Part shown: in pieces, positions 38,349 through 62,304 of the stretch
How the letters are laid out: each line of letters starts with the position of its first letter
How positions within the stretch are numbered: position 1 is the first letter of the stretch
Source: Myxococcales bacterium
GTDB taxonomy: Bacteria > Myxococcota_A > Bradymonadia > UBA7976 > UBA1532
Reading direction: 5' to 3'
DNA: 64,000 bases
Assembly (NCBI GenBank): GCA_020633435.1
Contig: JACKDP010000001.1
Location: forward strand, 517,359-581,358
Program-made: the position numbers and the translations under genes
Notes under the pieces: model-generated
What the model was told of the DNA's origin: nothing
Databases searched by the model: none
Seen by the model: only the letters and a program-made list of their open reading frames with translations

Positions 38349-38423
38349 CAGCCCTCCATCCGTCCCCGTCCGCGCACATGCTGCCGTTGGCGAGCCTATA
38401 GCAGTCGGTCTGTGGAGGTCCAA

Positions 38424-39357: not shown

Positions 39358-39545
39358 GGCGGTGCTCCTTGCTCTCTGGGCCATGCCATCTACTACGCCT
39401 TCGGCCCCAGTCCTGAGCCCCTCCCCCGGCCCCCGGCGGCACCATCACGTCCCGATTTTTCGGGCTTTGACCCCGTTGCGGCGCGTGTCACCGCGCAGTA
39501 CAACCGCTGTGGCAACTTGCGGCAAACAACGGCGAGGACTGCACG

Positions 39546-39749
39546 GTGCCCGAGTACCTGACCATCGACGAGGTTTGCGAGCTTCTCCAGTTGGGCAAGC
39601 GCACCGTGTACGAGCTTGCCCGGACGGGCCGCTTGCCGGGCGCCGCGAAGATCGGCGGCCAGTGGAGGGTCAACCGGGCCAAGCTCGCCGCCTGGCTGGA
39701 GGCCGGGGGCGAGTTCGCCGCGGTCGAGGGGGGCGAGCGCGACGAATGA
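39546..39749 (+). CDS. excisionase/AlpA-family HTH DNA-binding protein
   Basis: LTIDEVCELLQLGKRTVYELARTGRLPGAAKIGGQWRV; stop overlaps the SNF2 start (ATGA). Confidence 0.65.
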   Translation: MPEYLTIDEVCELLQLGKRTVYELARTGRLPGAAKIGGQWRVNRAKLAAWLEAGGEFAAVEGGERDE

Positions 39750-42595: not shown

Positions 42596-42603
42596 GAGCG
42601 GGG

Positions 42604-47744: not shown

Positions 47745-47766
47745 ACCGGCATGTAGGAGAAAGGAC

Positions 47767-48168
47767 GTGAAGCAAGAGAACCTTGACGACCTCGTCGCCG
47801 CGGTGCTGGCCGTCAACAGCTACTCCATCGAGAAGGCGTGGGCGCTTCTCCCAAAGCTGCGTGAGGCAGGGCTGACGACGCCTGTGACCTTCCCTACGGA
47901 TCTCGGACCGGCGACCGTCAAGCTCGCGTCGGCGGGGTACGACCGCGGGTTGCTCACGGAGATGTTCGCCAAGCGCCTGCTCGGCCTCATGCAGGAGGCC
48001 GGGTCCGGGGCGCTGGACGAACTGGACGCCTTCGTCGAGGCCGACCGCAAGGACGACGCGGTGGCTCTGCTGGTGACCGTGCCGGGGATCGGCCCGAAGG
48101 TGGCCCGGACCGCCTGGGAGTTGCTCCGTTCGGGACGGGGCGCAGCGGGCGCAGCGAGCAAATCCTGA
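47767..48168 (+). CDS. small hypothetical protein with helix-hairpin-helix-like motif
   Basis: GTG with AGGAGA RBS; VTVPGIGPKVA resembles an HhH. Confidence 0.45.
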   Translation: MKQENLDDLVAAVLAVNSYSIEKAWALLPKLREAGLTTPVTFPTDLGPATVKLASAGYDRGLLTEMFAKRLLGLMQEAGSGALDELDAFVEADRKDDAVALLVTVPGIGPKVARTAWELLRSGRGAAGAASKS

Positions 48169-48245
48169 TCCCTTAGTTTCGAGCATTACTTGGGGTGAGG
48201 GATTTGCTCGCTTGCCTGGGTAGCGTGCCTCGCAGGAGGTGCAAC

Positions 48246-49553
48246 ATGCCCAACTTCCCGAGCCGCATCGACATCGCCAACTCGCCCGAGTATTTCCCGA
48301 TCACGGCGCTCATCGCCGCGGGCCTGTGGCCCGACCTGACTCCGCCCGCCAAGGCCCTGCTGCCCGTCCTGTGGGACTTCCACCGGGAGTACCCCGACGC
48401 CTGCCACCCGAACCGGAAGACCCTCGCCCGGCTGTCGGGCATCAGCCCGCCCTCCGTGTCGAACGCCCTGACGGTGCTGGAGGACATCGGCATCGTGCAG
48501 ACGATCCAGACGCCGGGGCCGAGGCCGAACACCTACAAGCTCAAGTGGACGAATCTCCGGGCGCCGAAGAAGGCTGCCGCCGACACCGGATCGCCCTACC
48601 GGCGTCCGAGTGCGGACTGGGAACTGCACATGGGGACTGACGCCGAGGGCCATGCGGTCGCCAAGTACGAGCGCAAGGGGGGTGGGCTCCACCGCATGTC
48701 CGACGGCTGCTTCATCCGGGGCCAGGTCGAGATGGTGATCCACGACCTGCTCGTGGCCTGGGGCGTTCCCCACTGGTCGGAGGTCGGGTACTGCGACCTC
48801 GGCATCAAGCTCCGGCACGCGAAGTCCGGCGACCTCAACCGGCAGGCCACCGTGGACTTCGTGGTGGCGCCGGGCTTGCTCGTCGAGCGCCTCGGCCTGC
48901 CAGCGACCCAGGGGTCGGCGAAGAAGTACCGGGCCAAGTCCGCCGCGAAGATGAAGGCCGCCCGGAAGGCCGGGTGGACGGTGCTGACCATCGAGCCTGA
49001 CCAGCGGCCCGGCGACTGGCTGCTGGAGCCCATCAGGAAGGCGTGGGCCGACGCGACCATCGACGAGGCGACCCGCCTCCGGCGGCTCCTCCAAGGCGCT
49101 GGGAAGCACGAGGAGTCGCACGGTCCGAGCCGGAAGCTCGACGCCCACATCGAAGATGCGAAGGCCCGGCTGGCGGGCAAGAAGGAGCCCCGCAAGAGCC
49201 GCGGCCTGACCATGCAGAAGCGCGGCGAACATGGGTTCCCCGTGACGTACCGCTGCGACCCCATCATCGTGCTGATGGAGCAGGCCCGCCCCGCACCCGA
49301 GCCCGAGGATGACCTCGACGACTGGTTCGACGAGGTGCCGAGCGCCTACGAGCCGCAGCGCCCGCCCGACCTGCCCGCTCCCGACGAGAGGATGCTCGGG
49401 CGGCTCCGCGACCTGGACGACGAGATCGCCGACCTCGACGACCAGATGGCGGCCCTCGACGATGACAGCGACGACTACCAGGCCCTGCTGACGCAGAAGT
49501 GGGAACTCGAAGGGAAGAAGGGCGACCTGGAGGCCCAGTGCTACATGCGGTGA
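48246..49553 (+). CDS. hypothetical protein with N-terminal winged-helix-like region (possible replication/maintenance function)
   Basis: AGGAGG RBS before ATG 48246; HTH-like NRKTLARLSGISPPSVSNALTVLEDIGIV; acidic C-terminal tail. Confidence 0.45.
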   Translation: MPNFPSRIDIANSPEYFPITALIAAGLWPDLTPPAKALLPVLWDFHREYPDACHPNRKTLARLSGISPPSVSNALTVLEDIGIVQTIQTPGPRPNTYKLKWTNLRAPKKAAADTGSPYRRPSADWELHMGTDAEGHAVAKYERKGGGLHRMSDGCFIRGQVEMVIHDLLVAWGVPHWSEVGYCDLGIKLRHAKSGDLNRQATVDFVVAPGLLVERLGLPATQGSAKKYRAKSAAKMKAARKAGWTVLTIEPDQRPGDWLLEPIRKAWADATIDEATRLRRLLQGAGKHEESHGPSRKLDAHIEDAKARLAGKKEPRKSRGLTMQKRGEHGFPVTYRCDPIIVLMEQARPAPEPEDDLDDWFDEVPSAYEPQRPPDLPAPDERMLGRLRDLDDEIADLDDQMAALDDDSDDYQALLTQKWELEGKKGDLEAQCYMR

Positions 49554-49744
49554 GGGTGCCTCGACGCGGTGCCCGCTTCGGCCTCCCGCTCGCGCACGAC
49601 CGCTTCGAGGTCGTACCGGACGGCGCCGCGGAGCCTCACCACGGGGATCTGCCCGTCCCGAGTCATGCGGCGGACCGTCGAGAGGCTCACGCCGAGGGCG
49701 TCTGCAAGCTCCGTGGCGGTGAGCAGGCGGTGCATGTTGCTCAT
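49541..49744 (-). CDS. excisionase-family HTH protein
   Basis: 67 aa from ATG with GGGGAGG RBS; LLTATELADALGVSLSTVRRMTRDGQIPVVRLRGAVRY. Confidence 0.6.
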   Translation of the reverse strand: MSNMHRLLTATELADALGVSLSTVRRMTRDGQIPVVRLRGAVRYDLEAVVREREAEAGTASRHPHRM

Positions 49745-49990
49745 GTTGGCCTCCCCGGAAGTCGAGTCCATGCACAGATCGCGGCCCATAGGACGACCAA
49801 CCGGGTCGAAACGGTCAGCGACGGTCACACAGTCGCCGCCGCGGCCTCGGGGCGTCCAGAACCGTCGCTGCGGATGGTTCTCGCCGGGCCAACCGTGGGG
49901 GTTGGGACGCCGAACGGTGGGGGTTGGCCGAAGGTAGGTGGATTCGGCCCGGTGCGGCCCGCGGGGTTGTGGCCCGCGGACATGCGCGGT

Positions 49991-50629
49991 TCAGCGGGCT
50001 TCGGCGACGGCGACTTCTGGCCCACCCACCGGACGGGCCTCGGCGAGCCTGCGTCGCAGGGTCGTCCGCGGGAGGCCGAGCATGTCGGCGACCTCGCGGA
50101 CGCTGTGCCCTTGGGCGATGAGGGCCTGGGCTGCACGAAGGTCGAGGCCACGCCGCGGGCGCCCGAACTTCACGCCACGCTCGCGGGCGCGAGCGACGCC
50201 TGCCTGGACGCGCTCTTGGATCAGGGCGTGCTCAAGTTCGGCGACCACCGCGGCGAGCGTGAACAGCGCCTTCCCGAGGGCGGTGGTCGTCTCGATGTTC
50301 TCCCTGACGGACACGAACTCGACCCTGCAACGGCGGAACTCGTCGAGGGCCTCCAGCAGGTGCTGGGTCGAGCGGGCGAACCTGTCGAACCGCCACACCA
50401 TCACCACGTCCACCTCGGCGCCGCGGACGGCGGCCATGAGGCCGTCCAGGCCGGGCCGGGCCTCGGTGGTGCCGGACACGCCGTCGTCGATGAACTCGTG
50501 AACGACCTGCCAGCCGCGCTGCGCGGCCACTCGGCGAAGGTCATCAAGCTGGAGCCCCACGTCCTGCCCGTGCCCGGCGGTGCTCACCCTGGCGTACAAC
50601 GCCGCCCGCGTCTTCCGGCTCGTCGCCAT
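49991..50629 (-). CDS. serine recombinase (resolvase/invertase family)
   Basis: AALYARVSTAGHGQD (catalytic Ser region), C-terminal HTH. Confidence 0.85.
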   Translation of the reverse strand: MATSRKTRAALYARVSTAGHGQDVGLQLDDLRRVAAQRGWQVVHEFIDDGVSGTTEARPGLDGLMAAVRGAEVDVVMVWRFDRFARSTQHLLEALDEFRRCRVEFVSVRENIETTTALGKALFTLAAVVAELEHALIQERVQAGVARARERGVKFGRPRRGLDLRAAQALIAQGHSVREVADMLGLPRTTLRRRLAEARPVGGPEVAVAEAR

Positions 50630-50690
50630 CCCGTCCTCCGCGTCGTCTCCCCCAACTACGGAGTGGGCCGGAAGTCTGAGCCCCGCGGGC

Positions 50691-50785
50691 TTCTGGCCCG
50701 GAGATTCTCGGGGGCGGGCGAGATTCTCCCTGATCGGGTTCTCGGCGTCTTGGCAGGCACCTTCCGCCGCGGGAAACGTCGCCAG
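50691..50785. repeat. three direct copies of GAGATTCTC, followed at about 50848-50882 by a palindrome CCGATC-N8-GATCGG
   Basis: Copies near 50691, 50710 and 50776, upstream of the serine recombinase gene. Confidence 0.5.
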
Positions 50786-51016
50786 CGAGATTCTCGACCG
50801 TCAGGATCGGTTCTTCGGCGAGAAGTTCCCTCTCCGGCGTGTCAGAACCGATTGAAAACCGATCTGGGTTCGGATCGGGGGGCGCGATCCGGGGACTCCG
50901 GGTCACGGACATTTTGCGACCGAGCGGGCCAACGGTCTGCGGCAGGGGGTTGACTCGGGCACACCCTCGGGCCAAGATGTATCCATTGGATACAGGGCGC
51001 CTGATGGCGCAGGGAG

Positions 51017-51298
51017 ATGGTGGTGAGAGAGTACACGGAGCCGGAAGGGGATGCGGCCCAGAACCTCGGCCAGTGGAGACGTGAGTGGGAAGAAATCCCC
51101 CCCTTCCCGTTCAGCGAGTATGACGCATCGGATCGAGCCGTTGACCGCCTCGTGGTGAACTTGCACCTGGCCCTCGACGAGGAGGACGAGATTCGAGAGG
51201 TGCTGGAGCACCTGCGATGCCTCGCTACCGACTACCACAAGTGGTCGGTTCGGGCGGGCAAGCTGCTGGAACACGTCGAAGCTCAGGCCCAACGGTAG
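51017..51298 (+). CDS. small hypothetical protein
   Basis: 93-aa acidic ORF, RBS-like GGGAG at the start. Confidence 0.35.
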   Translation: MVVREYTEPEGDAAQNLGQWRREWEEIPPFPFSEYDASDRAVDRLVVNLHLALDEEDEIREVLEHLRCLATDYHKWSVRAGKLLEHVEAQAQR

Positions 51299-51302
51299 AC
51301 TC

Positions 51303-51587
51303 GTGGCTACGTCCTCTCGGTCCAAGGAACTGCCGACCGGCGCCGAGCAAGTTCGCCTGATCTTGGCGGAACTCGGCTGGACGCATGAGGTGGCGGCGGA
51401 GCACCTCGGCGTGGGCCGCGTGACCGTCAGCCGGTGGGCGAGCGGCGCCCGCGACCCCGGCGAGCAGGTACTCCGGCACCTGCGGATGATCCATCACCTC
51501 CGGGGCCTGCTCGGCGACGACCTCTGGCAGCAGGCGATGGCCGACCTGGCGAGCAGTCAGGGCTCGGAGCGGGGAGCCGCCAAATGA
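51303..51587 (+). CDS. HTH DNA-binding protein
   Basis: AEQVRLILAELGWTHEVAAEHLGVGRVTVSRWASG, HTH-like. Confidence 0.5.
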   Translation: MATSSRSKELPTGAEQVRLILAELGWTHEVAAEHLGVGRVTVSRWASGARDPGEQVLRHLRMIHHLRGLLGDDLWQQAMADLASSQGSERGAAK

Positions 51588-52072
51588 CCGAACATGCGCA
51601 GCTCGACATCCCCGCCTTGGTGGAGGAGATCAACGCCGCCGAGGACGACCCGATGTGGAAGGCGTGGACGAAGGATCGCCTGCGGCTCCAAGACCAACTT
51701 CACGAGCTTCGCGCCGTCCGAGATGCTCTCGCCCGCAAGCTCCGGGCATTGGCGCCCACGACGCCGGGCGGGGACAAGAGGCCCATGACCCGGCGGGAGC
51801 AGCGGATGGCGATGGGCGGCGGCGGCCTGTGGCCGCTGGCCCAGGCTGCGGAGATGCTGCCCATGAAGGACAACGAGGCGAGGGGCTGGCTGCGCAACGA
51901 AGGGCTCGTCGGCGACCTGGCCGGGCGTGAGGTCGTGCATTGGGGCCGCGTGCTCGACGCGCCCTACGCCACGAAGGATGAGGCGCCGTCGGTGCCTGCG
52001 AAGCAGGAGACACGGCGCCGGAAGCCGCTCCCGCGGGTGCGCCTCGGTGGCTCGTCGGGGGCGTCACGATGA
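51584..52072 (+). CDS. hypothetical protein
   Basis: ATG overlaps the previous stop; stop overlaps the integrase start. Confidence 0.4.
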   Translation: MTEHAQLDIPALVEEINAAEDDPMWKAWTKDRLRLQDQLHELRAVRDALARKLRALAPTTPGGDKRPMTRREQRMAMGGGGLWPLAQAAEMLPMKDNEARGWLRNEGLVGDLAGREVVHWGRVLDAPYATKDEAPSVPAKQETRRRKPLPRVRLGGSSGASR

Positions 52073-53202
52073 GCCCTCCAAGGAGTGCGCGACCCAAGCC
52101 CTTCTCGCTCGACATGATCAAGTGCCGGATCGTCCGCGGGCCGCACCCGGACGACCCGAACCGTTGGTACTGGCAGGCGGTCACCTACGGAGACGGTGAG
52201 CAGCGCACCATCTGGACGGGTTGGGGGTCGGTCGAGGAGGTGAAGGCCGCGCTGGCGCCGTTGCTGATGGGGATGCAGGCGGCCCCGTCGCGCCGTGAAG
52301 ACCGGGTGTCCACTGTGCAGGATCTCCTTGAGGTCTGGTTGGCGTGGCAACTCGGCCAACCGAACCTGAGCGAAGGGCGCAAGCTCAACTCGAAGAAGGA
52401 GGCAGAGCACGTCGCCGCCGTGATCGGTGATGTGCTCATCCTGCGGCTCGACACGACGACCCTGACGGAGTACCAGCGCGTGCGGCTGCGCGAGGGGGCC
52501 TCGACCGGCGTGATCCGCAACGAGATCAGCACCGTGATCCAGGCGTGGAACTGGGGCGGGGAGCGTGGGCTCGCACCGGAGCGGCGGCTGCGACGCCCCC
52601 GTTTGCAGCACAAGTCTGTGCGGAACGACTACGTTCCCGACCTGGTGGAGTTCTGGAAGGCCGTGGACGCGCTGCCCGACTCCAGACCCTGGGCTCGCAC
52701 CATGCTCCTCCTGCTGGGTGCGACGGGGGCGAGGCCAAGCGAGATCGCCGCCCTGACCTGGGAGGACATCCACTGGCGACGCCGTACCGTCCGTCTGGAC
52801 GGCAAGACCGGGAAGCGCCTGGCAGTCGTGAGCCAAGAGGTCTTGGACGAGTTGGCGCCGCACCGCCCCGACCCCGCGACTGGCCGCGTCCTCTCCGTGA
52901 GCTTGACCACGGCACGGGTGGACATCCGCAAGATCCTGCGGGACGCCTGCGTTGCGGCCAACGTGACGCCGTTCCTCCCGATGTCCATCCGCAAGATGGT
53001 CGAGAACGCGATGTTCGACGCTGGGGCCGACCCCGGCGTCGTCTCCCGGCAGCTTGGGCACACGCCGGAGGTGTCCTTGAGGCACTACCGCAGGGCGAAG
53101 TCGGCTCGCGTGGACGAGGTTCTCGCTCGTGCGGGCATCGGCACCAGGCCGGACGGCAACGTCGTGTCGCTGGCCGAGCACCGCAAGGCCAAGGACTCGT
53201 GA
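52069..53202 (+). CDS. tyrosine-type site-specific integrase
   Basis: Catalytic-domain motifs (LLGATGARPSEIAALTWEDI; LGHT...SLRHY) with the Tyr near the C-terminus. Confidence 0.85.
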   Translation: MSPPRSARPKPFSLDMIKCRIVRGPHPDDPNRWYWQAVTYGDGEQRTIWTGWGSVEEVKAALAPLLMGMQAAPSRREDRVSTVQDLLEVWLAWQLGQPNLSEGRKLNSKKEAEHVAAVIGDVLILRLDTTTLTEYQRVRLREGASTGVIRNEISTVIQAWNWGGERGLAPERRLRRPRLQHKSVRNDYVPDLVEFWKAVDALPDSRPWARTMLLLLGATGARPSEIAALTWEDIHWRRRTVRLDGKTGKRLAVVSQEVLDELAPHRPDPATGRVLSVSLTTARVDIRKILRDACVAANVTPFLPMSIRKMVENAMFDAGADPGVVSRQLGHTPEVSLRHYRRAKSARVDEVLARAGIGTRPDGNVVSLAEHRKAKDS

Positions 53203-53288
53203 CCTGTACAGCCCGACCTGTACAGCCGCAGGAGCGGCTGTCGTAACATGCTGAAACCATGCGACAAGCTGGCACAGGTGGCGGCGTT

Positions 53289-53318
53289 CAACATCAAGTG
53301 GAAGCCGGGCAACGAGCC
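53289..53318. repeat. attR: 30-bp direct repeat, right copy
   Basis: caacatcaagtggaagccgggcaacgagcc, followed in frame by the likely original gene tail (...NEPTTNLYA, stop). Confidence 0.8.
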
Positions 53319-53406
53319 GACGACGAACCTGTACGCGTGAGCGGTTCGGCAAGGGTTTGATTTGATTGCAAATCTCGCCCGCAGCGTGCTGGCGGGGGCC
53401 GGCCGC

Positions 53407-55497
53407 TCAGGACGTGAGGCGGTCGAAAGCCTGCTGGCGGGCCAGGAGCGTAGGCGACGGGGGCTCGCCCGCGAGGCGGTCGAAGCGGTCAGTGAGCAAC
53501 TTCTGCATCAGCTCGGTATGCGCCGCCGGCAGGCGCTCGAAGTGGGGCCAGAGGAGGTCCAGCGCCTCGTCCGCGGCGGCGCGGGCCTCGGCGGCCCGGC
53601 CGAGGGCAGCGAGGACGTCGCCGCTGCTGTCCATCGCGTTTGCAAGGTCAGGCTCGAACGCGTCCGGACGCGACGACGCAAGACGGCGATAGATACCCAC
53701 CGCCTCCGCCGTCGCTGACAACGCCTCCTCAAGACGACCCAACGATGAGATGTCACCGCCCAGGTTGTTGAGGCTCATGGCAAGGTCAGGCTCGAACGCG
53801 TCCGGACGCGACGACGCAAGACGTCGATACACGTCCACCGCCTCCGCCGTCGCTGACAACGCCTCCTCAAGACGACCCAACGATGAGAGCCGATTGCCCA
53901 GGTTGACCAGGCTCATGGCAAGGTCAGGCTCGAACGCGTCCGGTCGCGACGACGCAAGATGCCGATACACGTCCACCGCCTCCGCCGTCGCTGACAACGC
54001 CTCCTCAAGACGACCCAACGATGAGAGCCGATTGCCCAGGTTGACCAGGCTCATGGCAAGGTCAGGCTCGAACGCGTCCGGACGCGACGACGCAAGATAC
54101 CGATACACCTCCACCGCCTCCGCCGTCGCTGACAACGCCTCCTCTCGACGACCCAACGACGAGAGGTCAACGCCCAGGTTGTTCAGGCCACCCGCAAGGT
54201 TCGGCTCGAACGCTTCAAGACGCGACGACGCAAGACGGCGATAGATACCCACCGCCTCCATCGTCGCTGACAATGCCTCCTCAAGACGACCCAACGATGA
54301 GAGTCGATTGCCCAGGTTGTTCAGGCTCATGGCAAGGTCTGGCTCGAACGCGTCCGGACGCGACGACGCAAGACGGCGATCGAGACCCACCGCCTCCGTC
54401 GTCGCTGACAACGCCTCCTCAAGACGACCCAAAGATGAGAGCCGATTGCCCAGGTTGTTCAGGCTCGTGGCGAGGTCAGGCTCAAACGCGTCTGGACGCG
54501 ACAGTGCAAGACGGCGATAGATACCCACCGCCTCTGTCGTCGCTGACAACGCCTCCTCTCGACGACCCAACGAGGAGAGCCCAATGCCCAGGTCGGTCAG
54601 GCTCATGGCAAGATCGGGTTCGAACGCGTCCGGACGCGACGACGCAAGACGGCGATAGATACCCACCGCCTCCGCCGTCGCTGACAACGCCTCCTCTCGA
54701 CGACCCAACGACGCAAGGTCACGGCCCAGGCTGGTCAGCGCCCTCGCAACGTCTGCGTCCGGGCGTGCCGACGCGAGGCCTCTGTAGGACCCCACGGCTT
54801 CCGTTGACGCCGATAACGCTTCTGCGACCTCGTTCGCCAGGCCCATGTGCCCACTCCGCACCAAGGCCGCCAGCGCGCCAACCATCGCGTCGAAGCGCGC
54901 CGGATCCTCGGGAGCAAGCGCGAGCGCCGCTCGCGCCCGTCGCTCGGCGAGCTCCACCTCGGCAGGCGAGGCCCCATCTGACCGTTGCACGGGCGAAGTA
55001 ACATCGGGCTGCGAGACAGGAACCGGCGCGACCATCGGCTCAACAAGCAGGGTGTTGATAGACCAGAGATCGGGCGCAGCCAGCCGCACTACCGGCCGGG
55101 CCCACGCGGGCATGGCCACGACCAGGGCGTGCAGCCCGGATCGGCGCAGCGGCTCTCGGTGCTCGTTCCAGCGTTGTGCCGCGTTGAACCATGCGGTTCG
55201 CCAATCCTGCTCCGGACCAAAGGCCTCGCACCAGACCACGCCCCCTCTGGGCGCCGCCAGGATGCGACCGAGTGCGTCGCTCAGGTCCCCCGGATGCTCG
55301 CAGAGAACGGTCTCGATCGGCCAGCCACGGGCACCCGCCAGCGCCATCGTTCGGGCCCGAAGAATTCGAGCTGGAAAGCGGTCTGCCGCGACCACCGTCG
55401 CGATGACGAACCGATCTGCGAAATCCAGGAGATCACTGAGCAATTCCCAGGGCCGCTCCTCCAGGAGCGGCTGCGCTGCGAGGTGGTCTTCGGCCAC
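53407..55497 (-). CDS. TPR-like repeat protein (about nine 46-aa repeats), partner of the upstream NTPase
   Basis: Repeat unit RPDAFEPDLAMSLNNLGNRLSSLGRLEEALSATAEAV.VYRRLASS; GTG start 4 nt after the NTPase stop (ORF extends to 55554). Confidence 0.65.
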   Translation of the reverse strand: MAEDHLAAQPLLEERPWELLSDLLDFADRFVIATVVAADRFPARILRARTMALAGARGWPIETVLCEHPGDLSDALGRILAAPRGGVVWCEAFGPEQDWRTAWFNAAQRWNEHREPLRRSGLHALVVAMPAWARPVVRLAAPDLWSINTLLVEPMVAPVPVSQPDVTSPVQRSDGASPAEVELAERRARAALALAPEDPARFDAMVGALAALVRSGHMGLANEVAEALSASTEAVGSYRGLASARPDADVARALTSLGRDLASLGRREEALSATAEAVGIYRRLASSRPDAFEPDLAMSLTDLGIGLSSLGRREEALSATTEAVGIYRRLALSRPDAFEPDLATSLNNLGNRLSSLGRLEEALSATTEAVGLDRRLASSRPDAFEPDLAMSLNNLGNRLSSLGRLEEALSATMEAVGIYRRLASSRLEAFEPNLAGGLNNLGVDLSSLGRREEALSATAEAVEVYRYLASSRPDAFEPDLAMSLVNLGNRLSSLGRLEEALSATAEAVDVYRHLASSRPDAFEPDLAMSLVNLGNRLSSLGRLEEALSATAEAVDVYRRLASSRPDAFEPDLAMSLNNLGGDISSLGRLEEALSATAEAVGIYRRLASSRPDAFEPDLANAMDSSGDVLAALGRAAEARAAADEALDLLWPHFERLPAAHTELMQKLLTDRFDRLAGEPPSPTLLARQQAFDRLTS
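53510..54890. repeat. 138-bp tandem repeats (about 9 copies), coding
   Basis: The motif gtcaggctcgaacgcg recurs at 138-bp spacing; central copies nearly identical. Confidence 0.8.
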
Positions 55498-55501
55498 CGG
55501 G

Positions 55502-56800
55502 CTAGCTCGCGGCCTGTGATTCCAGACGGTCTGCGAGATCGAGAACGACGTCACGAACGATGGGGTGGACGTCGTACCACTCCGACCCGTTCTGGTAGCA
55601 GAGCACCAGGTGGCTGTCGAAGTACCGCGCCAGGCTGCCCAGGCCCTCCAGGTCCCTCAACTCGGCCTCGTGGGAGCGAGCGATCCGAGCCAGCCACCGA
55701 ACGTCCTCATGAGGAATCGGGGTGAACTGGGCCCGCAAGCGCTCCAGGGCAGCCCGGCGCGCGTCGGCCGATGCCGGCAGCGTGCGAGCCTCCAGGGCGA
55801 CGGTCTGCAGGACGCGGACGAGGTCGCGCAGGTGCCCGCCCGTCGCCAGAATCAGCTCCTCGAGAGCGTCGCGATCGCCCAGAACCACCGACCAGTCCGT
55901 GCGCTTGCCGACGAGCTGGACGAGACGCTCGATCCCAGGCGCGTAGGGCTGGCCGTCGCCATCGTCGACATAGGCCCGGACCTTCTGAGCGGGCAACGTC
56001 AGCAGGCCCGCTCCCGAATACGGGCTGCCGATGTTCGGCCGGCGGATGCGGAGCCAGGGCGGGACCGTATAGATGACATGGGTGGATGGCAGCTTGAGCT
56101 TGTCATCGTGGTCGGCGAACAAGCGTTCGAGTGACTCATGCACCCGCGCCTCGGTCTCATTGGTCCCACGGGCATGCTCGACCGAGTCGACGAGGACGAC
56201 GAGTGCCGTGCCCGGTCGGGCTGCCTCCAGCGCGAGTACACACTCCGCGACAAACCCACGCACCTCCCTGGCGAACGCGCCCAGGCTGGTCCCGAGCGCC
56301 TTCTGCACTTCCTGGCGAAAGAGCGGGTTGCTCTTGAGCTCTACCTTCATCCCCGCGAGGCTCACGTCCTTCAACGTGACGATGGTCCCGGTGACGAAGC
56401 CCCAGAGGCGCTGGCCGAGCGCGGCTCGCGCCGGGCTCTCCGGCAGGAGCGCTTCGTCGGTGAGCTTCTCGGCCAGGGCACCACAGAGGGCCAGCAGGAA
56501 GTCGGTGATGTCGATGGGGGTGTGGAGATCCAGGTAGTCCTCCACGTCGATGAGAACGACCGTGTAGTCCTCAGCGCCCAACTCACTGCGCAGACGCCTC
56601 AGCTCGGTGCTCTTGCCTGCGCCGCGGTAGCCGGACAGCAGCTGAGCACTCTCGCCCTCGGAGAACAGGATGGTCTCTTTGAGGCGAAGCACGACGTCGG
56701 ACTGGTCCTCGTACAGCGGGTAGTAGCGGGGGTCCTCCGGGTTCAACGGCACGTCAGCCATCTCTCGGAAGAAGCGCTGCCGCCGGTCGCGATCGGTCAT
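55502..56800 (-). CDS. P-loop NTPase (AAA/STAND-like)
   Basis: Walker A LLSGYRGAGKSTEL; Walker-B-like ALVVLVDSVEH; helical C-terminus. Confidence 0.65.
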   Translation of the reverse strand: MTDRDRRQRFFREMADVPLNPEDPRYYPLYEDQSDVVLRLKETILFSEGESAQLLSGYRGAGKSTELRRLRSELGAEDYTVVLIDVEDYLDLHTPIDITDFLLALCGALAEKLTDEALLPESPARAALGQRLWGFVTGTIVTLKDVSLAGMKVELKSNPLFRQEVQKALGTSLGAFAREVRGFVAECVLALEAARPGTALVVLVDSVEHARGTNETEARVHESLERLFADHDDKLKLPSTHVIYTVPPWLRIRRPNIGSPYSGAGLLTLPAQKVRAYVDDGDGQPYAPGIERLVQLVGKRTDWSVVLGDRDALEELILATGGHLRDLVRVLQTVALEARTLPASADARRAALERLRAQFTPIPHEDVRWLARIARSHEAELRDLEGLGSLARYFDSHLVLCYQNGSEWYDVHPIVRDVVLDLADRLESQAAS

Positions 56801-57447
56801 CGGGCCTCCGTCGTCCTCAGGTGCCGCGCAGTATAGGAGCCACGGTCGTCGGACACCACGGCATCGCGCACAGCCGTCATCGACCCTGGAACGCCGCCCA
56901 CGGGCTCATCGGGGCCCCCGAGGGCTCGTGGTACTGACGCGAACCCACCAGGGGGCAACTCCGGGACTCCCCTGAGGGCGTGGCCATCGAAGTGGCGGCC
57001 CGCAGGAACTGGCCACTCGATGGGCGGACCCGGGGGAAGGGGTACGCCGCCACCGGATCGGTGACGGCCGCTCGACAGCCTCCCCAGGCCCACTGCGAAA
57101 GGCAACGGCCTTCCTTTTTGTTTCGTCGACCGCTAGGAAAGGTTCCTCCGCAGCAGTAGGCAGCATGGACCTGGGCAGGACTTCTTCCGAGTGGCTCACC
57201 ACGAGCACGACAGCCGAGTAGGTCCAGGCGTTTCTGCCCGACCCCCCTGGAGCCGGCCCTCAGCCTGACGGCCGAGGACTCGCGGAGCGCGCCAACCGGG
57301 CACTCGGTGCCATCCTGTTTGGCGACTGCACCTGCCGCCTCACGCCTCCGCCTTCCGGCCAGCAGGGCCCAGGTGATAGCGTCGTCCCGCAGACCCCCGC
57401 CAGCAGGCGCGAGGTGTGCCCCCCTTGCCTGGTCCCAAGGAGGCGCC

Positions 57448-58032
57448 ATGAGCACGGTCCTCGTCCTGGCCAACGCCGTGGTCGACCAGCTTCCAGAGAC
57501 CCACAGCCCGGTTCCCTTCGTCGAAGCCTGGGCCGCGGTGGCGAAGGTCGAGGTCGTGCGCCAGGTCTTCGACGATCAGAACGATCTCAGCCAGCTGTTG
57601 AGGCGGTTCGCCACCGGGGGTCCCGCCCGGGTGGTCTGTCTCGCCGGCCATGGCGAGGGTGGCCACCCCGGCAGCCTCGGCCCGGGCATCGACCTGCCAG
57701 CCGCCCTGACAAGCGCCTTCCCGCGCGGAGCGCACCGGCCGCGCCGCCGAGGCCTGCTGACCGTGGGCTGCGAAGTCGACGCGGCGGCGGTCCTGGCCGG
57801 CACGGGCAGTGGCCTGGACTGGATCGCCGGCTGCCGCCGGCGGGTACCGTGGCTCGTCGCGGTCCACCAGGGCCTGCTGTTCCTTCACTCCCTCCTCGTG
57901 GGGCGCCCGACCGGAGACCCCGACCAGGTCCTGTCCACCATCTCCGCCGAGACGGCCGCCAGCTGGGTCTCCGCGGACCACCGGTCGCTGGTGGAGTTCG
58001 GCGTGACCGCGCGCCCGGTCGTCGAGCCGTGA
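57448..58032 (+). CDS. hypothetical protein with possible caspase-like His/Cys dyad
   Basis: GGAGG RBS before ATG; VVCLAGHGEGG and LLTVGCEVDA are spaced like a protease dyad (speculative). Confidence 0.4.
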   Translation: MSTVLVLANAVVDQLPETHSPVPFVEAWAAVAKVEVVRQVFDDQNDLSQLLRRFATGGPARVVCLAGHGEGGHPGSLGPGIDLPAALTSAFPRGAHRPRRRGLLTVGCEVDAAAVLAGTGSGLDWIAGCRRRVPWLVAVHQGLLFLHSLLVGRPTGDPDQVLSTISAETAASWVSADHRSLVEFGVTARPVVEP

Positions 58033-58081
58033 CCGCACTGGTCGCCCTCTCGGAGCCCGTTGATGTTTGCCTCCGGGCTCC

Positions 58082-58095
58082 CTACAGTTCTGTAG
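58082..58095. promoter_or_regulatory. perfect palindrome CTACAGttCTGTAG overlapping the antitoxin RBS (candidate operator)
   Basis: 6-bp arms with 2-bp spacer, about 15 nt upstream of the antitoxin ATG. Confidence 0.45.
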
Positions 58096-58109
58096 AAGGA
58101 GGTGCCCCC

Positions 58110-58400
58110 ATGTCCCGCAGCCAGATCTCCGCTTTCGTCTCCGACGAGACGCGCGCTCGCCTGGAGCGCTACGTCGCCGCGCACGGGATGAAGAAGGCCG
58201 CGGTCGTCGAGCGGGCGCTGCTGCACCACCTCCAGGCGCTCGAGGAGCTTCCCGCTGACATCGTGCTCCCGCCTCGCTTGCTCCTGGAACCCGATGGCTT
58301 CCGTCGCCTGGTCGAACGCGTGGAGGAGGCCGGTGAGCCGACCGCGGCGATGAAGGTGCTCTTCGGTGAGGTGGTTGACCCCGCGAACGATCCGACGTGA
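58110..58400 (+). CDS. ribbon-helix-helix antitoxin (DUF1778/TacA-like)
   Basis: MSRSQISAFVSDETRARLERYVAAHGMKKAAVVERALLHHL, RHH-like; stop overlaps toxin start. Confidence 0.65.
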   Translation: MSRSQISAFVSDETRARLERYVAAHGMKKAAVVERALLHHLQALEELPADIVLPPRLLLEPDGFRRLVERVEEAGEPTAAMKVLFGEVVDPANDPT

Positions 58401-58930
58401 TCGAGGTCCGTCAGCTCCGGGCTGCCGACGACCGGGCGGTGTTCTCGTGCGGCCAGCCCGACCTGGACCGCTTCTTTCTACGCTACGCCGGGCAGAACCA
58501 GTTCAAGCACCACCTCGGCGTCACCTGGGTCGCCGTCGACGGTGACCAGGGGGATCGCATCCTCGGCTTCGCGACAGTGAGCGCGTCGCAGATCGAAGCC
58601 ACCGGGCTGCCACCCGAGCTGCGCCGGCGCCTGCCCCGCTATCCCCTGCCCGTCCTCCGGCTCGCCCGCCTGGGCGTCGACCAGTCGGCGCAGGGGCGTG
58701 GCGTGGGACTGCTGCTCCTGAAGTCCGTGTTCGTCCTGGCTCGGCAGATGGCCCGGGACGTCGGGTGCGTTGGTGTCGTCGTGGACGCGAAGGCGGAGGC
58801 CATGGCCTTCTACGGGCGGTTCGGGTTCGAGGTCATCGACGGGCTGGTTGAAGGCGAGCTGGGCGACCGGCCGGTGGCGACCCCGATGTTTCTGCCGCTC
58901 GGCCTGATTCCAGCCATCGAGCCCGACTGA
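58397..58930 (+). CDS. GNAT-family acetyltransferase toxin (TacT/KacT-like)
   Basis: GNAT core LARLGVDQSAQGRGVGLLLL...AFYGRFGF; GTG overlaps antitoxin stop (GTGA). Confidence 0.7.
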   Translation: MIEVRQLRAADDRAVFSCGQPDLDRFFLRYAGQNQFKHHLGVTWVAVDGDQGDRILGFATVSASQIEATGLPPELRRRLPRYPLPVLRLARLGVDQSAQGRGVGLLLLKSVFVLARQMARDVGCVGVVVDAKAEAMAFYGRFGFEVIDGLVEGELGDRPVATPMFLPLGLIPAIEPD

Positions 58931-58972
58931 GACCAACGCGGGCGCCCCGCAAACCAGCCTACGAGGGTCCCC

Positions 58973-59659
58973 ATGGCCTTTGATCTGCGCCTGTCCGTTG
59001 ACCTCGCCGCTTGCCGCTCGGCCCTGGAGGCCCTTGCGGCATCGACCGGCTGCACCGTGGTGGTCTCTCCCGCCGGTGCCAGCTTCGGCCTGCCCCACGA
59101 CAATGATGCCGCGCGCGTGGCCTTCGCCGGCCTCGTCGCCCTCGTTCGGGCCCATGGCGGGCAGCTCCATGACCCCCAGGCAGGCGCCACCATCGACCTC
59201 GCCAACCCCGGGAGCTGGCCCCCGGCCTGGGTGGACCCCGCCGACGGCCTGCCGCCCCCACCCCGGGTGGTGGCGCAGGTGCAGGTCCGGCTGCGCACCG
59301 ACAACCTCGCGTATGCAAAGCACTTCTGGTGCGAGCGGCTGGGCGGGCGGGTGCTCTTCGCGGGTGACGCGCGGCTGGAGGTGGACCTGTACGGGGTGCG
59401 CGTGGTGCTGCACCTGGGCCCAAAGGCGCGGCCGAAGCCTGCCCTGGTGGGGCCCGGGGGGCAGGATCAGCTGCCCGCCACCTGCCTGACGCTCACGCTG
59501 CCCGCGGGGGACTACGACGCGCTGCTGCGGCGGCTGCGGGCGATGGCGCAGTACTTCTCGTTTCAGCCGCGGCCACGGCAGATCGACGGGGGCGCGCAGG
59601 CCGAGTCGTTCGTGGTGGCCGACTCCAACGTGAACTTCGTCGAGGTGCGGCGCGGCTAG
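58973..59659 (+). CDS. hypothetical protein, possibly VOC/glyoxalase-fold
   Basis: Weak resemblance only. Confidence 0.4.
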   Translation: MAFDLRLSVDLAACRSALEALAASTGCTVVVSPAGASFGLPHDNDAARVAFAGLVALVRAHGGQLHDPQAGATIDLANPGSWPPAWVDPADGLPPPPRVVAQVQVRLRTDNLAYAKHFWCERLGGRVLFAGDARLEVDLYGVRVVLHLGPKARPKPALVGPGGQDQLPATCLTLTLPAGDYDALLRRLRAMAQYFSFQPRPRQIDGGAQAESFVVADSNVNFVEVRRG

Positions 59660-59734
59660 CCGGCGCCCCGCGGCTTGCACCGACCCCCCTCCCCGGTCCA
59701 CCCTCCGGCCGATTTTCGACCGAGAGGAGTCCCC

Positions 59735-60286
59735 ATGGCCCACCCCTGGCACGACCTGCCCAACAACCCCGACACCTGCCACGAGTCGTTCAACGTCGTC
59801 ATCGAGATCCCGCGCGGGTCGAAGGTGAAGTATGAGATCGACAAGCCCACCGGCCTGCTGCGGGTGGATCGCATCTTGTACTCTTCGGTGATGTATCCGG
59901 CCAACTATGGCTTCATCCCCCGCTCGTACTGCGAGGATGGCGATCCGCTGGACGTGCTGGTGCTGGGATCGGAGGCCGTGCACCCGCTGTCCATCATGGA
60001 GGCGCGGGCCATCGGGGTGATGCACATGGAGGATCGCGGCGAGGCGGATGACAAGATCATCGCCGTGCATGTGCATGATCCGGCCTTCGCCGACTACACG
60101 GATGTGTCTCAGATCCCGAGTCATATCGGGCGCGAGATCAAGCGGTTCTTCCTCGACTACACCATCCTGGAGGGCAAGGTGGTGCAGGTGGATGACATTC
60201 AGGGGCGCGACGCCGCCATCGAGGTCATCCGGGAGGCGTTCGCCTTCTACCGCGCCGAGGAGACGAAGCTGCGCGGCTGGCGGTAG
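59735..60286 (+). CDS. ppa: inorganic pyrophosphatase
   Basis: FNVVIEIPRGSKVKYEIDK...DGDPLDVLVL, family I PPase; start at internal ATG with GAGGAG RBS. Confidence 0.9.
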   Translation: MAHPWHDLPNNPDTCHESFNVVIEIPRGSKVKYEIDKPTGLLRVDRILYSSVMYPANYGFIPRSYCEDGDPLDVLVLGSEAVHPLSIMEARAIGVMHMEDRGEADDKIIAVHVHDPAFADYTDVSQIPSHIGREIKRFFLDYTILEGKVVQVDDIQGRDAAIEVIREAFAFYRAEETKLRGWR

Positions 60287-60345: not shown

Positions 60346-62304
60346 ATGCGCGGCGGACTGCTGGGGCTGGCCCTCATGGTGGGCTGTGGGGGCGCGGGGA
60401 CGCGCGGCGGGGCGGCCGAGGACGCCGAGCAGGCGGCCTTCCTGGGGGCCGACGCCCAGGGCGGGCTGGACGCCGCCGGGGCCTGCGCGGTGCGCAAGCA
60501 GGCGCGCGAGGCGACGCCGGCGGCCCTCGCGGCGGCGGGCGTGGGGCCGAAGGCGGTGGCCGCGCTGCTGGCCCACCGCGCCGGGCCCGATGGCCAGCCG
60601 GGCACGCCCGACGACGGCGGCTTCGACACCCTGGCCGAGCTGGACGCGGTGCCGTTCGTGGGCCCCGAGGCCTTCAAGTGGCTGCAGGCCAGCGCCCCGC
60701 CCTGCGGCGACATCGCCGTGCAAGTGCTCGGGATCAATGACTTTCATGGCAACCTGCTGCCACCGTCCGGGTCGGGCGGGCGCATCCAGACGGGGCCGGA
60801 TCGCGAGAAGGACGCCGTCGAGGCCGGCGGCGTCGAGTACCTGGCGACGCACCTGGCGCGCCTGGCGGCGACGTCCCCCAACACCGTCATCGTGGCGGCC
60901 GGCGACCTGGTGGGGGCGAGCCCGCTCATCTCGGCGCTCTTCCACGACGAGCCCGCCATCGAGGCGCTGAGCCTGGCCGGGCTCGACGCCGCCGCCGTGG
61001 GCAACCACGAGTTCGACGAGGGCTGGGCCGAGCTGCTGCGGCTGCAGCGCGGGGGCTGCCACCCCAAGGATGGCTGCCGCACGGCGGTCCCGTTCGCGGG
61101 CGCCGACTTCCAGTACCTGGGAGCCAACGTCATCGTCGAGGCGACGGGCGAGACGCTCTTCCCGCCCACCCTGGTGCGGCGCTTCGGCGGCGTGCGCGTG
61201 GGCTTCATCGGGTTGACGCTGGAGGGCACCCCGTCGGTGACGGTGGCGTCGGGCGTCAAGGGCCTGCGCTTCGGCGACGAGATCGCCACCATCAACGCCC
61301 AGGCCGCGGCGCTCAAGGCGCAGGGCATCGAGACCATCGTCGTGCTCATCCACGAGGGCGGCAAGACGACGGGGCTCTACAACGGCTGCGAGGGGCTCAG
61401 CGGGCCCATCATCGACATCGTGGCCGGCCTCGACGCCGCCGTGGACGTGGTGCTCACCGGCCACAGCCACCAGGCGTACCTGTGCCGCCTCGGGGGCCGC
61501 ATCGTGGCCTCGGGGGCCCACGCCGGGCGGCTGGTGACGGACGTCGACCTGACCATCTCCGAGGTCACCGGCGACGTGGTGTCCATGCAGGCCGAGAACG
61601 TCATCGTCACGCGGGACGTGCCGAAGGCGCCGGCCCTGACGGCCCTCATCGAGCGCTACCAGGCGGTGGCCGCCCCCCTGGCCAACCGCGTCGTCGGCGT
61701 CGTCGAGGGGGATCTGACGCGGGCCTTGTCGCCGGCGGGCGAGAGCAGCCTGGGCAACGTCATCGCCGACGCGCAGCTCGCCGCCACCCGCGCCGAGGGG
61801 GCGGTCATCGCCTTCATGAACCCCGGCGGCCTGCGGGCCGACATCGGCGCGGCGCAGGTCGCGGGCGGCGAGGCGCCGGGCCAGGTGACGTACGGCGAGG
61901 CCTTCACGGCCCAGCCCTTCAACAACCTGCTCGTGAGCATGGACCTCACGGGGGCCCAGCTCGACACCCTGCTGGAGCAGCAGTGGAAGGGCGACCGCGC
62001 CCGCATCCTCTCGGTTTCACAGGGGTTTCGGTATCGCTACGACGCCCGCAAGCCCCTCGGCGATCGCGTCGACGCCCTGACGCTGGACGGCAAGCCCATC
62101 GATCCGGCCGCCACCTACCGCATCACCGTGAACAGCTTCCTGGCCGACGGGGGCGACACCTTCGCCATCCTGGGCGAGGGCCAGCGGCGGGTGACGGGCG
62201 CGGTGGACGTGGACGCGCTGGCCGACTGGCTGGCGGCCCACCAGCCCCTGCCCGTGCCGACCCTCGACCGCATCACCCGCGTGGACGCGCCGAAGCAGCC
62301 CTGA
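60346..62304 (+). CDS. bifunctional metallophosphatase/5'-nucleotidase lipoprotein with N-terminal HhH-like segment
   Basis: Lipobox LALMVGC; NDFHG, GNHEFD, GHSH motifs; N-terminal AAGVGPKAVAALLAHR resembles a ComEA-type HhH. Confidence 0.8.
   Translation: MRGGLLGLALMVGCGGAGTRGGAAEDAEQAAFLGADAQGGLDAAGACAVRKQAREATPAALAAAGVGPKAVAALLAHRAGPDGQPGTPDDGGFDTLAELDAVPFVGPEAFKWLQASAPPCGDIAVQVLGINDFHGNLLPPSGSGGRIQTGPDREKDAVEAGGVEYLATHLARLAATSPNTVIVAAGDLVGASPLISALFHDEPAIEALSLAGLDAAAVGNHEFDEGWAELLRLQRGGCHPKDGCRTAVPFAGADFQYLGANVIVEATGETLFPPTLVRRFGGVRVGFIGLTLEGTPSVTVASGVKGLRFGDEIATINAQAAALKAQGIETIVVLIHEGGKTTGLYNGCEGLSGPIIDIVAGLDAAVDVVLTGHSHQAYLCRLGGRIVASGAHAGRLVTDVDLTISEVTGDVVSMQAENVIVTRDVPKAPALTALIERYQAVAAPLANRVVGVVEGDLTRALSPAGESSLGNVIADAQLAATRAEGAVIAFMNPGGLRADIGAAQVAGGEAPGQVTYGEAFTAQPFNNLLVSMDLTGAQLDTLLEQQWKGDRARILSVSQGFRYRYDARKPLGDRVDALTLDGKPIDPAATYRITVNSFLADGGDTFAILGEGQRRVTGAVDVDALADWLAAHQPLPVPTLDRITRVDAPKQP

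What the first reader, a model, noticed from the sequence alone, without database searches (positions are those of the whole stretch)
57448..58032. Small divergent protein with possible caspase-like His/Cys dyad next to the NTPase-TPR pair
The 194-aa protein has a hydrophobic strand followed by HG (VVCLAGHGEGG) and later a strand followed by Cys (LLTVGCEVDA), an arrangement like the caspase/CHAT catalytic dyad. Being divergently transcribed from the NTPase-TPR pair, it could be an effector. This is a weak, motif-only inference.
Basis: inference. Interest (0 to 1): 0.4.

Follow-up and report, generated by a model that had tools for sequence, protein, structure and literature searches.

The report
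Stand-alone mini caspase-like protein
The small gene encodes a divergent member of a rare, unstudied family of about 200-residue proteins with a caspase/CHAT-like fold and an invariant His/Cys pair, but it entered this genome on a small cassette with a toxin-antitoxin pair and is not part of the neighbouring NTPase-TPR system.

Summary
The ORF at 57448-58032 (+) is real. It has ATG preceded by AAGGAGG, and the coding GC3 signal lies in this frame. Both motifs are present. No sequence library names the protein (Pfam, NCBIfam, PADLOC, PDB), but an exhaustive HMMER scan found about 25 clusters of proteins about 200 aa long. An AlphaFold model built on the family alignment (pLDDT 82, pTM 0.82) best matches SAVED-CHAT, caspase-3/7, CED-3 and MALT1. 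hhalign places His68 and Cys108 on caspase-3 His121 and Cys163.

The "effector of the NTPase-TPR pair" part is not supported. None of about 30 family loci has an NTPase or TPR neighbour, and none of five NTPase-TPR loci has a family member. In a sister Myxococcales MAG (NTPase region 90% identical), the 2.1 kb holding this gene and an RHH-GNAT pair is replaced by about 115 bp.

Outside one Bacteroidales lineage, family members sit next to BREX/AIPR, type I R-M, Mrr, WYL regulators or transposases, or on plasmids. The window copy alone lacks the family's near-invariant E8, W11 and Y129, so its activity is uncertain.

The parts
57448..58032 (+). Gene for the 194-aa stand-alone caspase/CHAT-like (clan CD-like fold) protein, a divergent member of a rare uncharacterised family.
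   Evidence: ORF and codon-position GC signal; family of about 25 clusters at 50% identity; alignments A1 and A4; AF2 model; Foldseek.
57437..57443 (+). Shine-Dalgarno-like AAGGAGG, 4 nt upstream of the ATG.
   Evidence: Read directly from the sequence.
57649..57651 (+). Codon CAT for His68, the predicted catalytic His in 'CLAGHGEGG', just after strand b3.
   Evidence: Invariant in 37/37; aligned to caspase-3 His121; follows model strand 62-66.
57769..57771 (+). Codon TGC for Cys108, the predicted catalytic nucleophile in 'LLTVGCEVD', at the end of strand b4.
   Evidence: Invariant in 37/37; aligned to caspase-3 Cys163; lies in model strand 102-109.
56861..58968 (.). 2.1-kb segment present here but replaced by about 115 bp in the sister Myxococcales MAG (L039). 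It holds about 590 nt of non-coding DNA, the caspase-like gene and the RHH-GNAT pair.
   Evidence: blastn colinearity: window 53289-56860 and 58969-59663 match L039, and the stretch between does not; junction alignment. No target-site duplication or terminal inverted repeat was found.
58110..58400 (+). 96-aa ORF with a weak, sub-threshold RelB-like RHH antitoxin match. It travels on the same indel; it is context, not shown to be a functional partner.
   Evidence: NCBIfam NF048017 E 4.4e-4, 20.4 bits against a cut-off of 50; its stop overlaps the GNAT start by 4 nt.
58397..58930 (+). GNAT acetyltransferase (177 aa), probably a TacT-like toxin. It travels on the same indel; context only.
   Evidence: Pfam Acetyltransf_7 38.3 bits (GA 27) and Acetyltransf_1 32.6 bits (GA 20.7).
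55502..56800 (-). P-loop NTPase (432 aa, weak AAA_16/nSTAND-like match), a neighbour and half of a conserved NTPase-TPR module. It is NOT part of the caspase-like feature.
   Evidence: Pfam; more than 236 homologues; the TPR partner is conserved in L039-L043 without any caspase-like gene.
53407..55554 (-). TPR_10/TPR_12 protein (715 aa), partner of the NTPase and a neighbour only.
   Evidence: Pfam; 138-nt x 7.8 tandem array at 53642-54711.

Best explanation
The gene encodes a stand-alone, minimal (194 aa) protein with the caspase-hemoglobinase (clan CD: caspase/CHAT-like) fold. It keeps the catalytic His (His68, after strand b3) and Cys (Cys108, end of strand b4). It is a divergent member of a rare, unnamed family of proteins about 200 aa long that is distantly and sub-threshold related to Pfam DUF6642. 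The family has no fixed gene partner and is scattered through accessory DNA, including defence islands, IS-flanked sites and plasmids. In this Myxococcales genome the gene sits on a 2.1-kb indel together with an RHH-GNAT toxin-antitoxin pair, between a conserved NTPase-TPR module and core genes. It is therefore a passenger of the variable region, not a component of the NTPase-TPR system. The most likely mechanism is inferred, not shown: a cysteine endopeptidase that uses the His68/Cys108 dyad. In the family consensus, acidic Glu8 (end of b1) and Glu137 (after b5) occupy the loops that in caspases carry the two S1-pocket arginines. This suggests cleavage after basic residues, as in metacaspases and the type IV Thoeris caspase. 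The window copy alone has Ala8, Val11, Cys129 and Val137 at these positions, so it has either a changed specificity or weakened or lost activity. SHOWN: the ORF, the family, the invariant His and Cys, the caspase/CHAT-like predicted fold, the lack of co-occurrence with NTPase-TPR, and the indel. INFERRED: protease activity, P1 preference, and any role in defence or inter-element conflict.
For: The ORF is real and in the coding frame. The exhaustive phmmer scan gave 25 representative clusters with E<=1e-3 and 8 with E<=1e-10, all about 200 aa. A 26-sequence alignment has invariant A66, H68, G102 and C108. A 37-sequence alignment has invariant A66, H68, C108 and W135 at 23% mean column identity. 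The AF2 model built on the alignment has pLDDT 82.3 and pTM 0.82 with a caspase-type order of secondary-structure elements. Foldseek against the PDB ranks SAVED-CHAT 8tl0 first (E 6.7e-5, TMq 0.58), followed by caspase-3/7, CED-3 and MALT1. Foldseek against BFVD returns caspase-domain and clostripain proteins as the named hits. hhalign of the family against caspase-3 gives E 0.003 and aligns H68 with H121 and C108 with C163. One distant relative (P0035) is named 'CHAT domain-containing protein' by UniRef. Family members lie next to BrxL plus AIPR (L021), type I R-M plus an integrase (L009), Mrr_cat (L032), a WYL-WCX regulator (L036), IS3 or IS200-type transposases (L028, L020, Vibrio plasmid), or on plasmids. 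Independence from NTPase-TPR rests.
Against: No sequence-level match reaches significance for CHAT, Peptidase_C14 or any PDB chain. The fold assignment rests on a predicted model with moderate TM-scores (0.5-0.58), and generic flavodoxin-like hits (type II dehydroquinase) appear with similar E-values. Model coordinates could not be inspected, so dyad geometry is unverified. The window protein is the only one of 37 that lacks E8, W11 and Y129, and it also lacks the common G106 and E137. Comparison with its 98%-identical twin gives only 4 synonymous and 4 non-synonymous codon changes, too few to show purifying selection. In the largest lineage (Bacteroidales) the gene lies among T9SS-cargo and MatE genes, not defence genes. 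No experiment exists for any member, and there is no literature on DUF6642.
Confidence: 0.6

Rival explanations
1. One reading: the protein is the caspase-like effector of the divergently transcribed NTPase-TPR pair, a three-gene STAND-like conflict system.
For: The genes are adjacent and divergent, with 647 nt between their starts. Caspase/CHAT effectors are known partners of sensors in bacterial immunity. The NTPase shows faint nSTAND-like matches.
Against: None of about 30 family loci has an NTPase or TPR homologue nearby. None of the NTPase-TPR loci L039-L043 has a family member, even at profile sensitivity. The sister MAG keeps NTPase-TPR at 90% DNA identity directly beside orf228, without this gene. 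The NTPase-TPR module is conserved as a two-gene unit with overlapping genes.
Confidence: 0.06
2. The protein is a third component of the adjacent RHH-GNAT toxin-antitoxin cassette, for example a protease that degrades the antitoxin. The three genes would move together as one unit.
For: All three genes lie on the same 2.1-kb indel and the same strand, with a 77-nt gap between the caspase-like gene and the RHH ORF. Antitoxin degradation by proteases is a general feature of type II TA systems (established knowledge).
Against: No RHH or GNAT homologue lies next to any other family member. The TA pair has its own strong RBS, and TA pairs usually rely on host Lon or Clp proteases. The contig of the 98%-identical twin is too short to test linkage.
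Confidence: 0.1
3. The window copy is a decaying or non-catalytic caspase-fold protein (a pseudo-protease or remnant) with no enzymatic role, even if the family at large is active.
For: It is the single outlier at E8 (36/37 Glu), W11 (36/37 Trp) and Y129 (36/37 Tyr), and it also departs at Y64, G106 and E137. It lacks the roughly 20-aa C-terminal insert that most members have. The ratio of 4 synonymous to 4 non-synonymous codon changes against its twin does not show constraint. It lies in a recently rearranged region.
Against: The ORF is intact with a strong RBS and a normal GC3 signal. His68, Cys108, A66, G69, G102, W125 and W135 are retained. An intact, near-identical copy occurs in a second metagenome sample.
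Confidence: 0.2
4. The fold is not caspase-like but another three-layer alpha/beta fold (flavodoxin-like). On this reading the conserved His and Cys serve different chemistry, such as metal or cofactor binding or a non-peptidase hydrolase or transferase.
For: Type II dehydroquinase chains appear among the Foldseek hits at E about 1e-3. No sequence profile reaches CHAT or C14.
Against: The top hits in two independent libraries are clan CD peptidases with higher query TM-scores (0.5-0.64, against 0.32-0.41 for dehydroquinases). The His-after-b3 and Cys-after-b4 spacing and the local motifs (hydrophobic strand then HG; hydrophobic strand then small residue then C) align in register with caspase-3.
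Confidence: 0.08

Closest known systems
CHAT-domain proteases of bacterial immunity (SAVED-CHAT of Haliangium ochraceum, PDB 8tl0; Pfam CHAT PF12770)
   Same: It is the best structural match to the model (E 6.7e-5, TMq 0.58). It has the same His/Cys dyad arrangement on a caspase-like fold. A distant family relative carries the UniRef name 'CHAT domain-containing protein'. SAVED-CHAT comes from a myxobacterium and acts in defence.
   Different: No member scores significantly against Pfam CHAT; the best is E 0.32 for P0039. This protein is 194 aa with no sensor domain (SAVED, TPR), whereas SAVED-CHAT chains are about 475 aa and are activated by cA3-induced filament formation. There is no cyclase, CRISPR or CBASS neighbour here.
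Caspases, metacaspases and orthocaspases (Peptidase_C14), including PCaspase and the type IV Thoeris caspase
   Same: The order of secondary-structure elements is the same. hhalign aligns His68 and Cys108 with caspase-3 His121 and Cys163. The local motifs resemble caspase-3 'VCVLLSHGEEG' and 'IIQACRG'. Caspase-3/7, CED-3 and MALT1 are among the Foldseek hits. The acidic residues predicted in the family's S1 loops parallel the Arg specificity reported for the Thoeris IV caspase.
   Different: There is no Peptidase_C14 Pfam hit at E<=1. No p20/p10 linker or prodomain is present. No TIR partner (Thoeris IV) or SAVED-CHAT activator is nearby. The family has its own conserved residues (E8, W11, W125, Y129, W135), which are not caspase signatures.
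Pfam DUF6642 (PF20347), a family of unknown function
   Same: Five of 26 family members give colinear, nearly full-length but sub-threshold matches. The best is P0023, residues 3-151 against profile positions 3-152 of 182, 20.7 bits. The proteins are of similar size.
   Different: All scores fall below the gathering cut-off of 27 bits, and the window protein has no hit at all. No function, structure or literature exists for DUF6642.

Membership tests
Clan CD cysteine peptidases (caspase-hemoglobinase fold: caspase, CHAT, legumain, gingipain, clostripain) | An alpha/beta/alpha sandwich with six strands in caspase order. Predicted-structure similarity to solved members is the test. | tested here: met
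   The AF2 model has pLDDT 82.3. The top Foldseek PDB hits are SAVED-CHAT, caspase-3/7, CED-3 and MALT1, with probability 1.00 and TMq 0.47-0.58. BFVD returns caspase and clostripain proteins. Strand order in 3D could not be inspected directly.
Clan CD cysteine peptidases | A catalytic His (followed by Gly) after strand b3 and a catalytic Cys at the end of b4, both conserved across homologues. | tested here: met
   His68 and Cys108 are invariant in 37/37 and Gly69 is present in 36/37. They follow model strands 62-66 and 102-109. They align with caspase-3 His121 and Cys163.
Clan CD cysteine peptidases | Peptidase activity that depends on the dyad. | not testable with these tools
   This needs biochemistry. 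No member of the family has been studied.
Pfam CHAT (PF12770) | A score at or above the gathering threshold of 24 bits against the CHAT profile. | tested here: not met
   The window protein has no hit at E<=1. The best score in the wider family is P0039 at 10.8 bits, E 0.32.
Pfam Peptidase_C14 (caspase domain) | A significant profile match to Peptidase_C14. | tested here: not met
   None of the 26 members hits it at E<=1. A PDB profile search finds no caspase chain. Only pairwise hhalign against caspase-3 gives a marginal E of 0.003.
Pfam DUF6642 (PF20347) | A score at or above the gathering threshold of 27 bits. | tested here: not met
   The window protein has no hit. Five members score 12-21 bits, and the match is colinear over most of the profile. 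The family is probably homologous but lies outside the curated family.
STAND/NTPase-TPR conflict system with a caspase-like effector | The effector gene co-occurs with the NTPase and TPR genes across genomes. | tested here: not met
   No family locus carries an NTPase or TPR homologue next to the gene. None of five NTPase-TPR loci has a family member. The sister genome lacks the gene but keeps the pair.
Known anti-phage defence systems (PADLOC-DB v2) | A match to a defence-protein model. | tested here: not met
   The candidate matches no PADLOC family at E<=1.

The most novel reading that the evidence does not exclude
The family is a previously unrecognised class of minimal, single-domain, single-gene 'mini-caspases' of about 200 aa. 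They circulate in defence islands, IS-flanked sites and plasmids, and act on their own as proteolytic immunity or counter-immunity factors. For example, they might cleave an invader or host protein after Arg/Lys without any dedicated sensor partner. The window copy would be a specificity-switched variant.
Probability: 0.2. Interest if true: 0.6.

Novelty: new variant of a known kind. Interest (0 to 1): 0.38.

Why it matters
Caspase-like proteases are emerging as executioners in bacterial immunity (Craspase, SAVED-CHAT/PCaspase, type IV Thoeris), but the known ones are fused to or encoded beside a sensor. A family consisting of only the roughly 200-residue catalytic fold, with an invariant His/Cys dyad, its own conserved pocket residues and a patchy distribution in accessory DNA, would be the smallest such module. 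It raises the question of how an unregulated caspase fold is kept in check. For this window specifically, the result corrects the gene-neighbourhood inference: the NTPase-TPR pair is a self-contained two-gene module whose own effector is still unknown. It also flags the local copy as an atypical, possibly inactive member.

Tried and rejected
- **Sequence libraries:** Direct searches of the window protein against Pfam, NCBIfam, PADLOC and PDB found nothing.
- **Word-indexed homologue search:** It found only a 98%-identical twin.
- **Single-sequence AF2:** The model was useless, with pLDDT 37.
- **PDB profile searches:** Searches with A1 and A4, and phmmer of the distant relatives P0037 and P0039, gave only chance hits.
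- **Exact-sequence look-up:** The window protein is not on record in the contig collection, and the twin's contig is only 831 bp.
- **First locus scan:** The search for related loci with A1 failed because the alignment has no sufficiently conserved stretch. It worked with the sub-alignment A2.
- **Indel boundaries:** No target-site duplication or terminal repeat bounds the 2.1-kb indel.
- **Expression signals and RNA:** No sigma-70-type promoter was found upstream of the gene, and the two terminator-like matches do not exceed the number expected from shuffles. The 590-nt upstream spacer has no Rfam match.
- **Mobile collections:** The window protein has no phage or plasmid match. The consensus-like member P0003 found four plasmid copies.
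- **Literature:** Searches for DUF6642 and PF20347 returned nothing.
- **Selection test:** dN/dS against the twin is uninformative, with only 8 codon differences.
- **Rejected readings:** I rejected the longer GTG start at 57307 because homologues start at the ATG. I rejected the antisense ORF at 57340-58038 because its GC by codon position is wrong. I rejected membership of CHAT, C14 or DUF6642 as curated families because all scores are below threshold.

Full report
**Observation.** The ORF at 57448-58032 on the + strand is real. It starts at an ATG, with AAGGAGG 4 nt upstream, and encodes 194 aa. GC by codon position (about 0.75/0.58/0.86) fits this frame and not the antisense ORF at 57340-58038. 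Homologues begin at the same Met, so the longer GTG start at 57307 is not needed. His68 is codon 57649-57651 and Cys108 is codon 57769-57771. The gene is divergent from a P-loop NTPase (55502-56800, -) and a TPR gene (53407-55554, -), with 647 nt between the start codons.

**Homologues.** No curated library recognises the protein. Pfam, NCBIfam, PADLOC and PDB sequence searches returned nothing. The word-indexed search found only a 98%-identical twin on an 831-bp metagenome contig. The exhaustive HMMER scan of 1.84 billion cluster representatives found 25 proteins with E<=1e-3 and 8 with E<=1e-10, nearly all 176-239 aa. The family is therefore real but rare. A profile search added further members and more distant relatives of 233-348 aa. 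One of these (P0035, Aquitalea) is named 'CHAT domain-containing protein' by UniRef. Two others (P0037, P0038) carry a signal peptide and an N-terminal extension.

**Conservation.** In the 26-sequence alignment the invariant columns are A66, H68, G102 and C108. In the 37-sequence alignment, at 23% mean column identity, they are A66, H68, C108 and W135. L7, E8, W11, G69, G102, W125 and Y129 are conserved at 90% or more. The family motifs are 'CYIAGHGxGG' and 'KGILLGACEVG'.

**Fold.**
- The single-sequence AF2 model was uninformative, with pLDDT 37.
- With the family alignment the model reaches pLDDT 82.3 and pTM 0.82.
- Its element order is b1(3-9), a, b2(35-41), a, b3(62-66), then His68, a, b4(102-109, carrying Cys108), a, b5(125-129), a, a, b6(184-188).
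- This is the order of the caspase-hemoglobinase fold, with His after b3 and Cys at the end of b4 (established knowledge of clan CD).
- Foldseek against the PDB ranks SAVED-CHAT (8tl0) first, at E 6.7e-5 and query TM 0.58. Caspase-3, CED-3, caspase-7, caspase-6 and MALT1 follow.
- Type II dehydroquinases also appear, but with lower query TM (0.32-0.41), and they look like generic alpha/beta background.
- Foldseek against BFVD gives caspase-domain and clostripain proteins of giant viruses as its named hits.
- hhalign of the family against human caspase-3, whose sequence I supplied from memory, gives a marginal E of 0.003. It aligns His68 with His121 and Cys108 with Cys163 in one ungapped-core register.
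- At sequence level the curated tests fail. There is no CHAT or Peptidase_C14 hit, and only sub-threshold, colinear DUF6642 hits for five members, the best at 20.7 bits against a GA of 27.
- I therefore file the protein as a fold-level relative of caspase/CHAT enzymes that forms its own family, not as a member of CHAT, C14 or DUF6642.

**Link to the NTPase-TPR pair.**
- tblastn of the window's NTPase, TPR, RHH, GNAT and orf228 proteins against 38 family-derived loci found no NTPase near any family member. The only TPR signal was a weak repeat match in one Bacteroidales genome.
- The NTPase has more than 236 homologues. In loci L039-L043 it is always followed by an overlapping TPR gene, so NTPase-TPR is a conserved two-gene module. 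None of these loci holds a family member by tblastn or by an HMM of A4 at E<=0.01.
- A sister Myxococcales MAG (L039) is colinear with the window over 53289-56860 (90% DNA identity; TPR and NTPase). Colinearity resumes at 58969-59663 (orf228), 59716-60282 (pyrophosphatase) and 60363-62036 (5'-nucleotidase). The window's 56861-58968 corresponds to only about 115 bp there.
- That 2.1-kb indel holds about 590 nt without coding signal or Rfam match, the caspase-like gene, a small ORF with a weak RelB-like RHH match, and an overlapping GNAT gene that is probably a TacAT-like TA pair.
- No terminal repeats mark the indel.

**Genomic context of the family.** In a set of related Bacteroidales MAGs the gene lies in a conserved, apparently vertical neighbourhood of T9SS-cargo proteins and MatE transporters. 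Elsewhere the neighbours are accessory genes:
- BrxL and an AIPR abortive-infection protein (L021);
- a type I R-M system, an EMARD_N protein and an integrase (L009);
- an Mrr-type endonuclease (L032);
- a WYL-WCX regulator immediately upstream (L036);
- IS3 or IS200-type transposases (L028, L020);
- plasmids of Pseudomonas veronii, Vibrio cyclitrophicus (between two IS3 copies), Rhizobium phaseoli and Pseudoalteromonas, all annotated as hypothetical.

In this window the wider setting is a lower-GC island carrying an SNF2 helicase, a DNA methylase, a ResIII helicase-S24 fusion, a resolvase and an integrase. No partner gene recurs across these loci.

**Mechanism (inferred).** The most likely activity is cysteine endopeptidase catalysis by His68 and Cys108. 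In caspases the S1 pocket is built by residues after b1 and after b5 (Arg64 and Arg207 in caspase-3; established knowledge). In this family those loops carry near-invariant Glu8 and common Glu137, with Trp11, Tyr129 and Trp135 nearby. This suggests a preference for basic P1 residues, as in metacaspases and the Arg-specific type IV Thoeris caspase. The positional equivalence comes from the order of secondary-structure elements, not from a computed superposition. The window protein is the single outlier at E8 (Ala), W11 (Val) and Y129 (Cys), and it also differs at Y64, G106 and E137. Against its twin it shows 4 synonymous and 4 non-synonymous codon changes. It may therefore be a specificity-shifted or decaying copy.

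**Comparison with known systems.** SAVED-CHAT and PCaspase of Haliangium form a cOA-triggered proteolytic cascade. In type IV Thoeris a TIR-made nucleotide activates a promiscuous caspase-like protease. This protein shares their fold and dyad but has no sensor domain, no signalling partner and no significant sequence match to their families.

**Verdict.** The caspase-like inference is supported at fold and conserved-residue level. The proposed functional link to the NTPase-TPR pair is not supported. The feature is a divergent member of an uncharacterised minimal caspase-fold family, carried on a small indel in a variable region. Interest is moderate. The family deserves an activity test, but there is no functional evidence, and this particular copy is atypical.

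Noticed in passing
window 38000-53300: A lower-GC island (0.65-0.70 against about 0.75). It carries a WHD protein (38734-39384, -), an SNF2 helicase (39080-42595), an N6_N4 DNA methylase (41854-44427), a ResIII helicase with a C-terminal Peptidase_S24 domain (44424-47744), an HTH_36 protein, a resolvase (49991-50629, -) and a tyrosine integrase (52069-53202). It looks like an integrated defence or mobile element. The DNA to the left of 53289 is not shared with the sister MAG L039.
   Followed up: partly
window 53407-56800 (- strand): The NTPase (432 aa) and TPR (715 aa) genes form a conserved, overlapping two-gene module with more than 236 NTPase homologues across phyla and no assigned function. 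The first ~230 residues of the TPR protein, which precede the TPR repeats, were not examined further and could be its effector.
   Followed up: partly
window 53642-54711: A 138-nt tandem array (7.8 copies, 89% matches) lies inside the TPR gene, giving near-identical 46-aa TPR units. This suggests recent repeat expansion or homogenisation.
   Followed up: no
window 58110-58930: A small ORF (96 aa, weak RelB-like RHH match) overlaps by 4 nt a GNAT acetyltransferase gene (177 aa). This is probably a TacA/TacT-type toxin-antitoxin pair on the same 2.1-kb indel as the caspase-like gene.
   Followed up: partly
window 56861-57447: About 590 nt upstream of the gene has no coding codon-position GC signal, no Rfam match and no sigma-70-type promoter match. 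It is unusually long for this dense genome and is absent from the sister MAG.
   Followed up: partly
window 58973-59659: A 228-aa conserved hypothetical protein with no Pfam or NCBIfam hit. In the sister MAG its homologue lies directly beside the NTPase and matches in two reading frames, a possible frameshift.
   Followed up: no
P0037, P0038; L044 5662-6672 (P. veronii plasmid): Some distant relatives carry a signal peptide and an N-terminal extension of about 130 aa, or are 336 aa long. Part of the wider family may therefore be secreted or fused to another domain.
   Followed up: no
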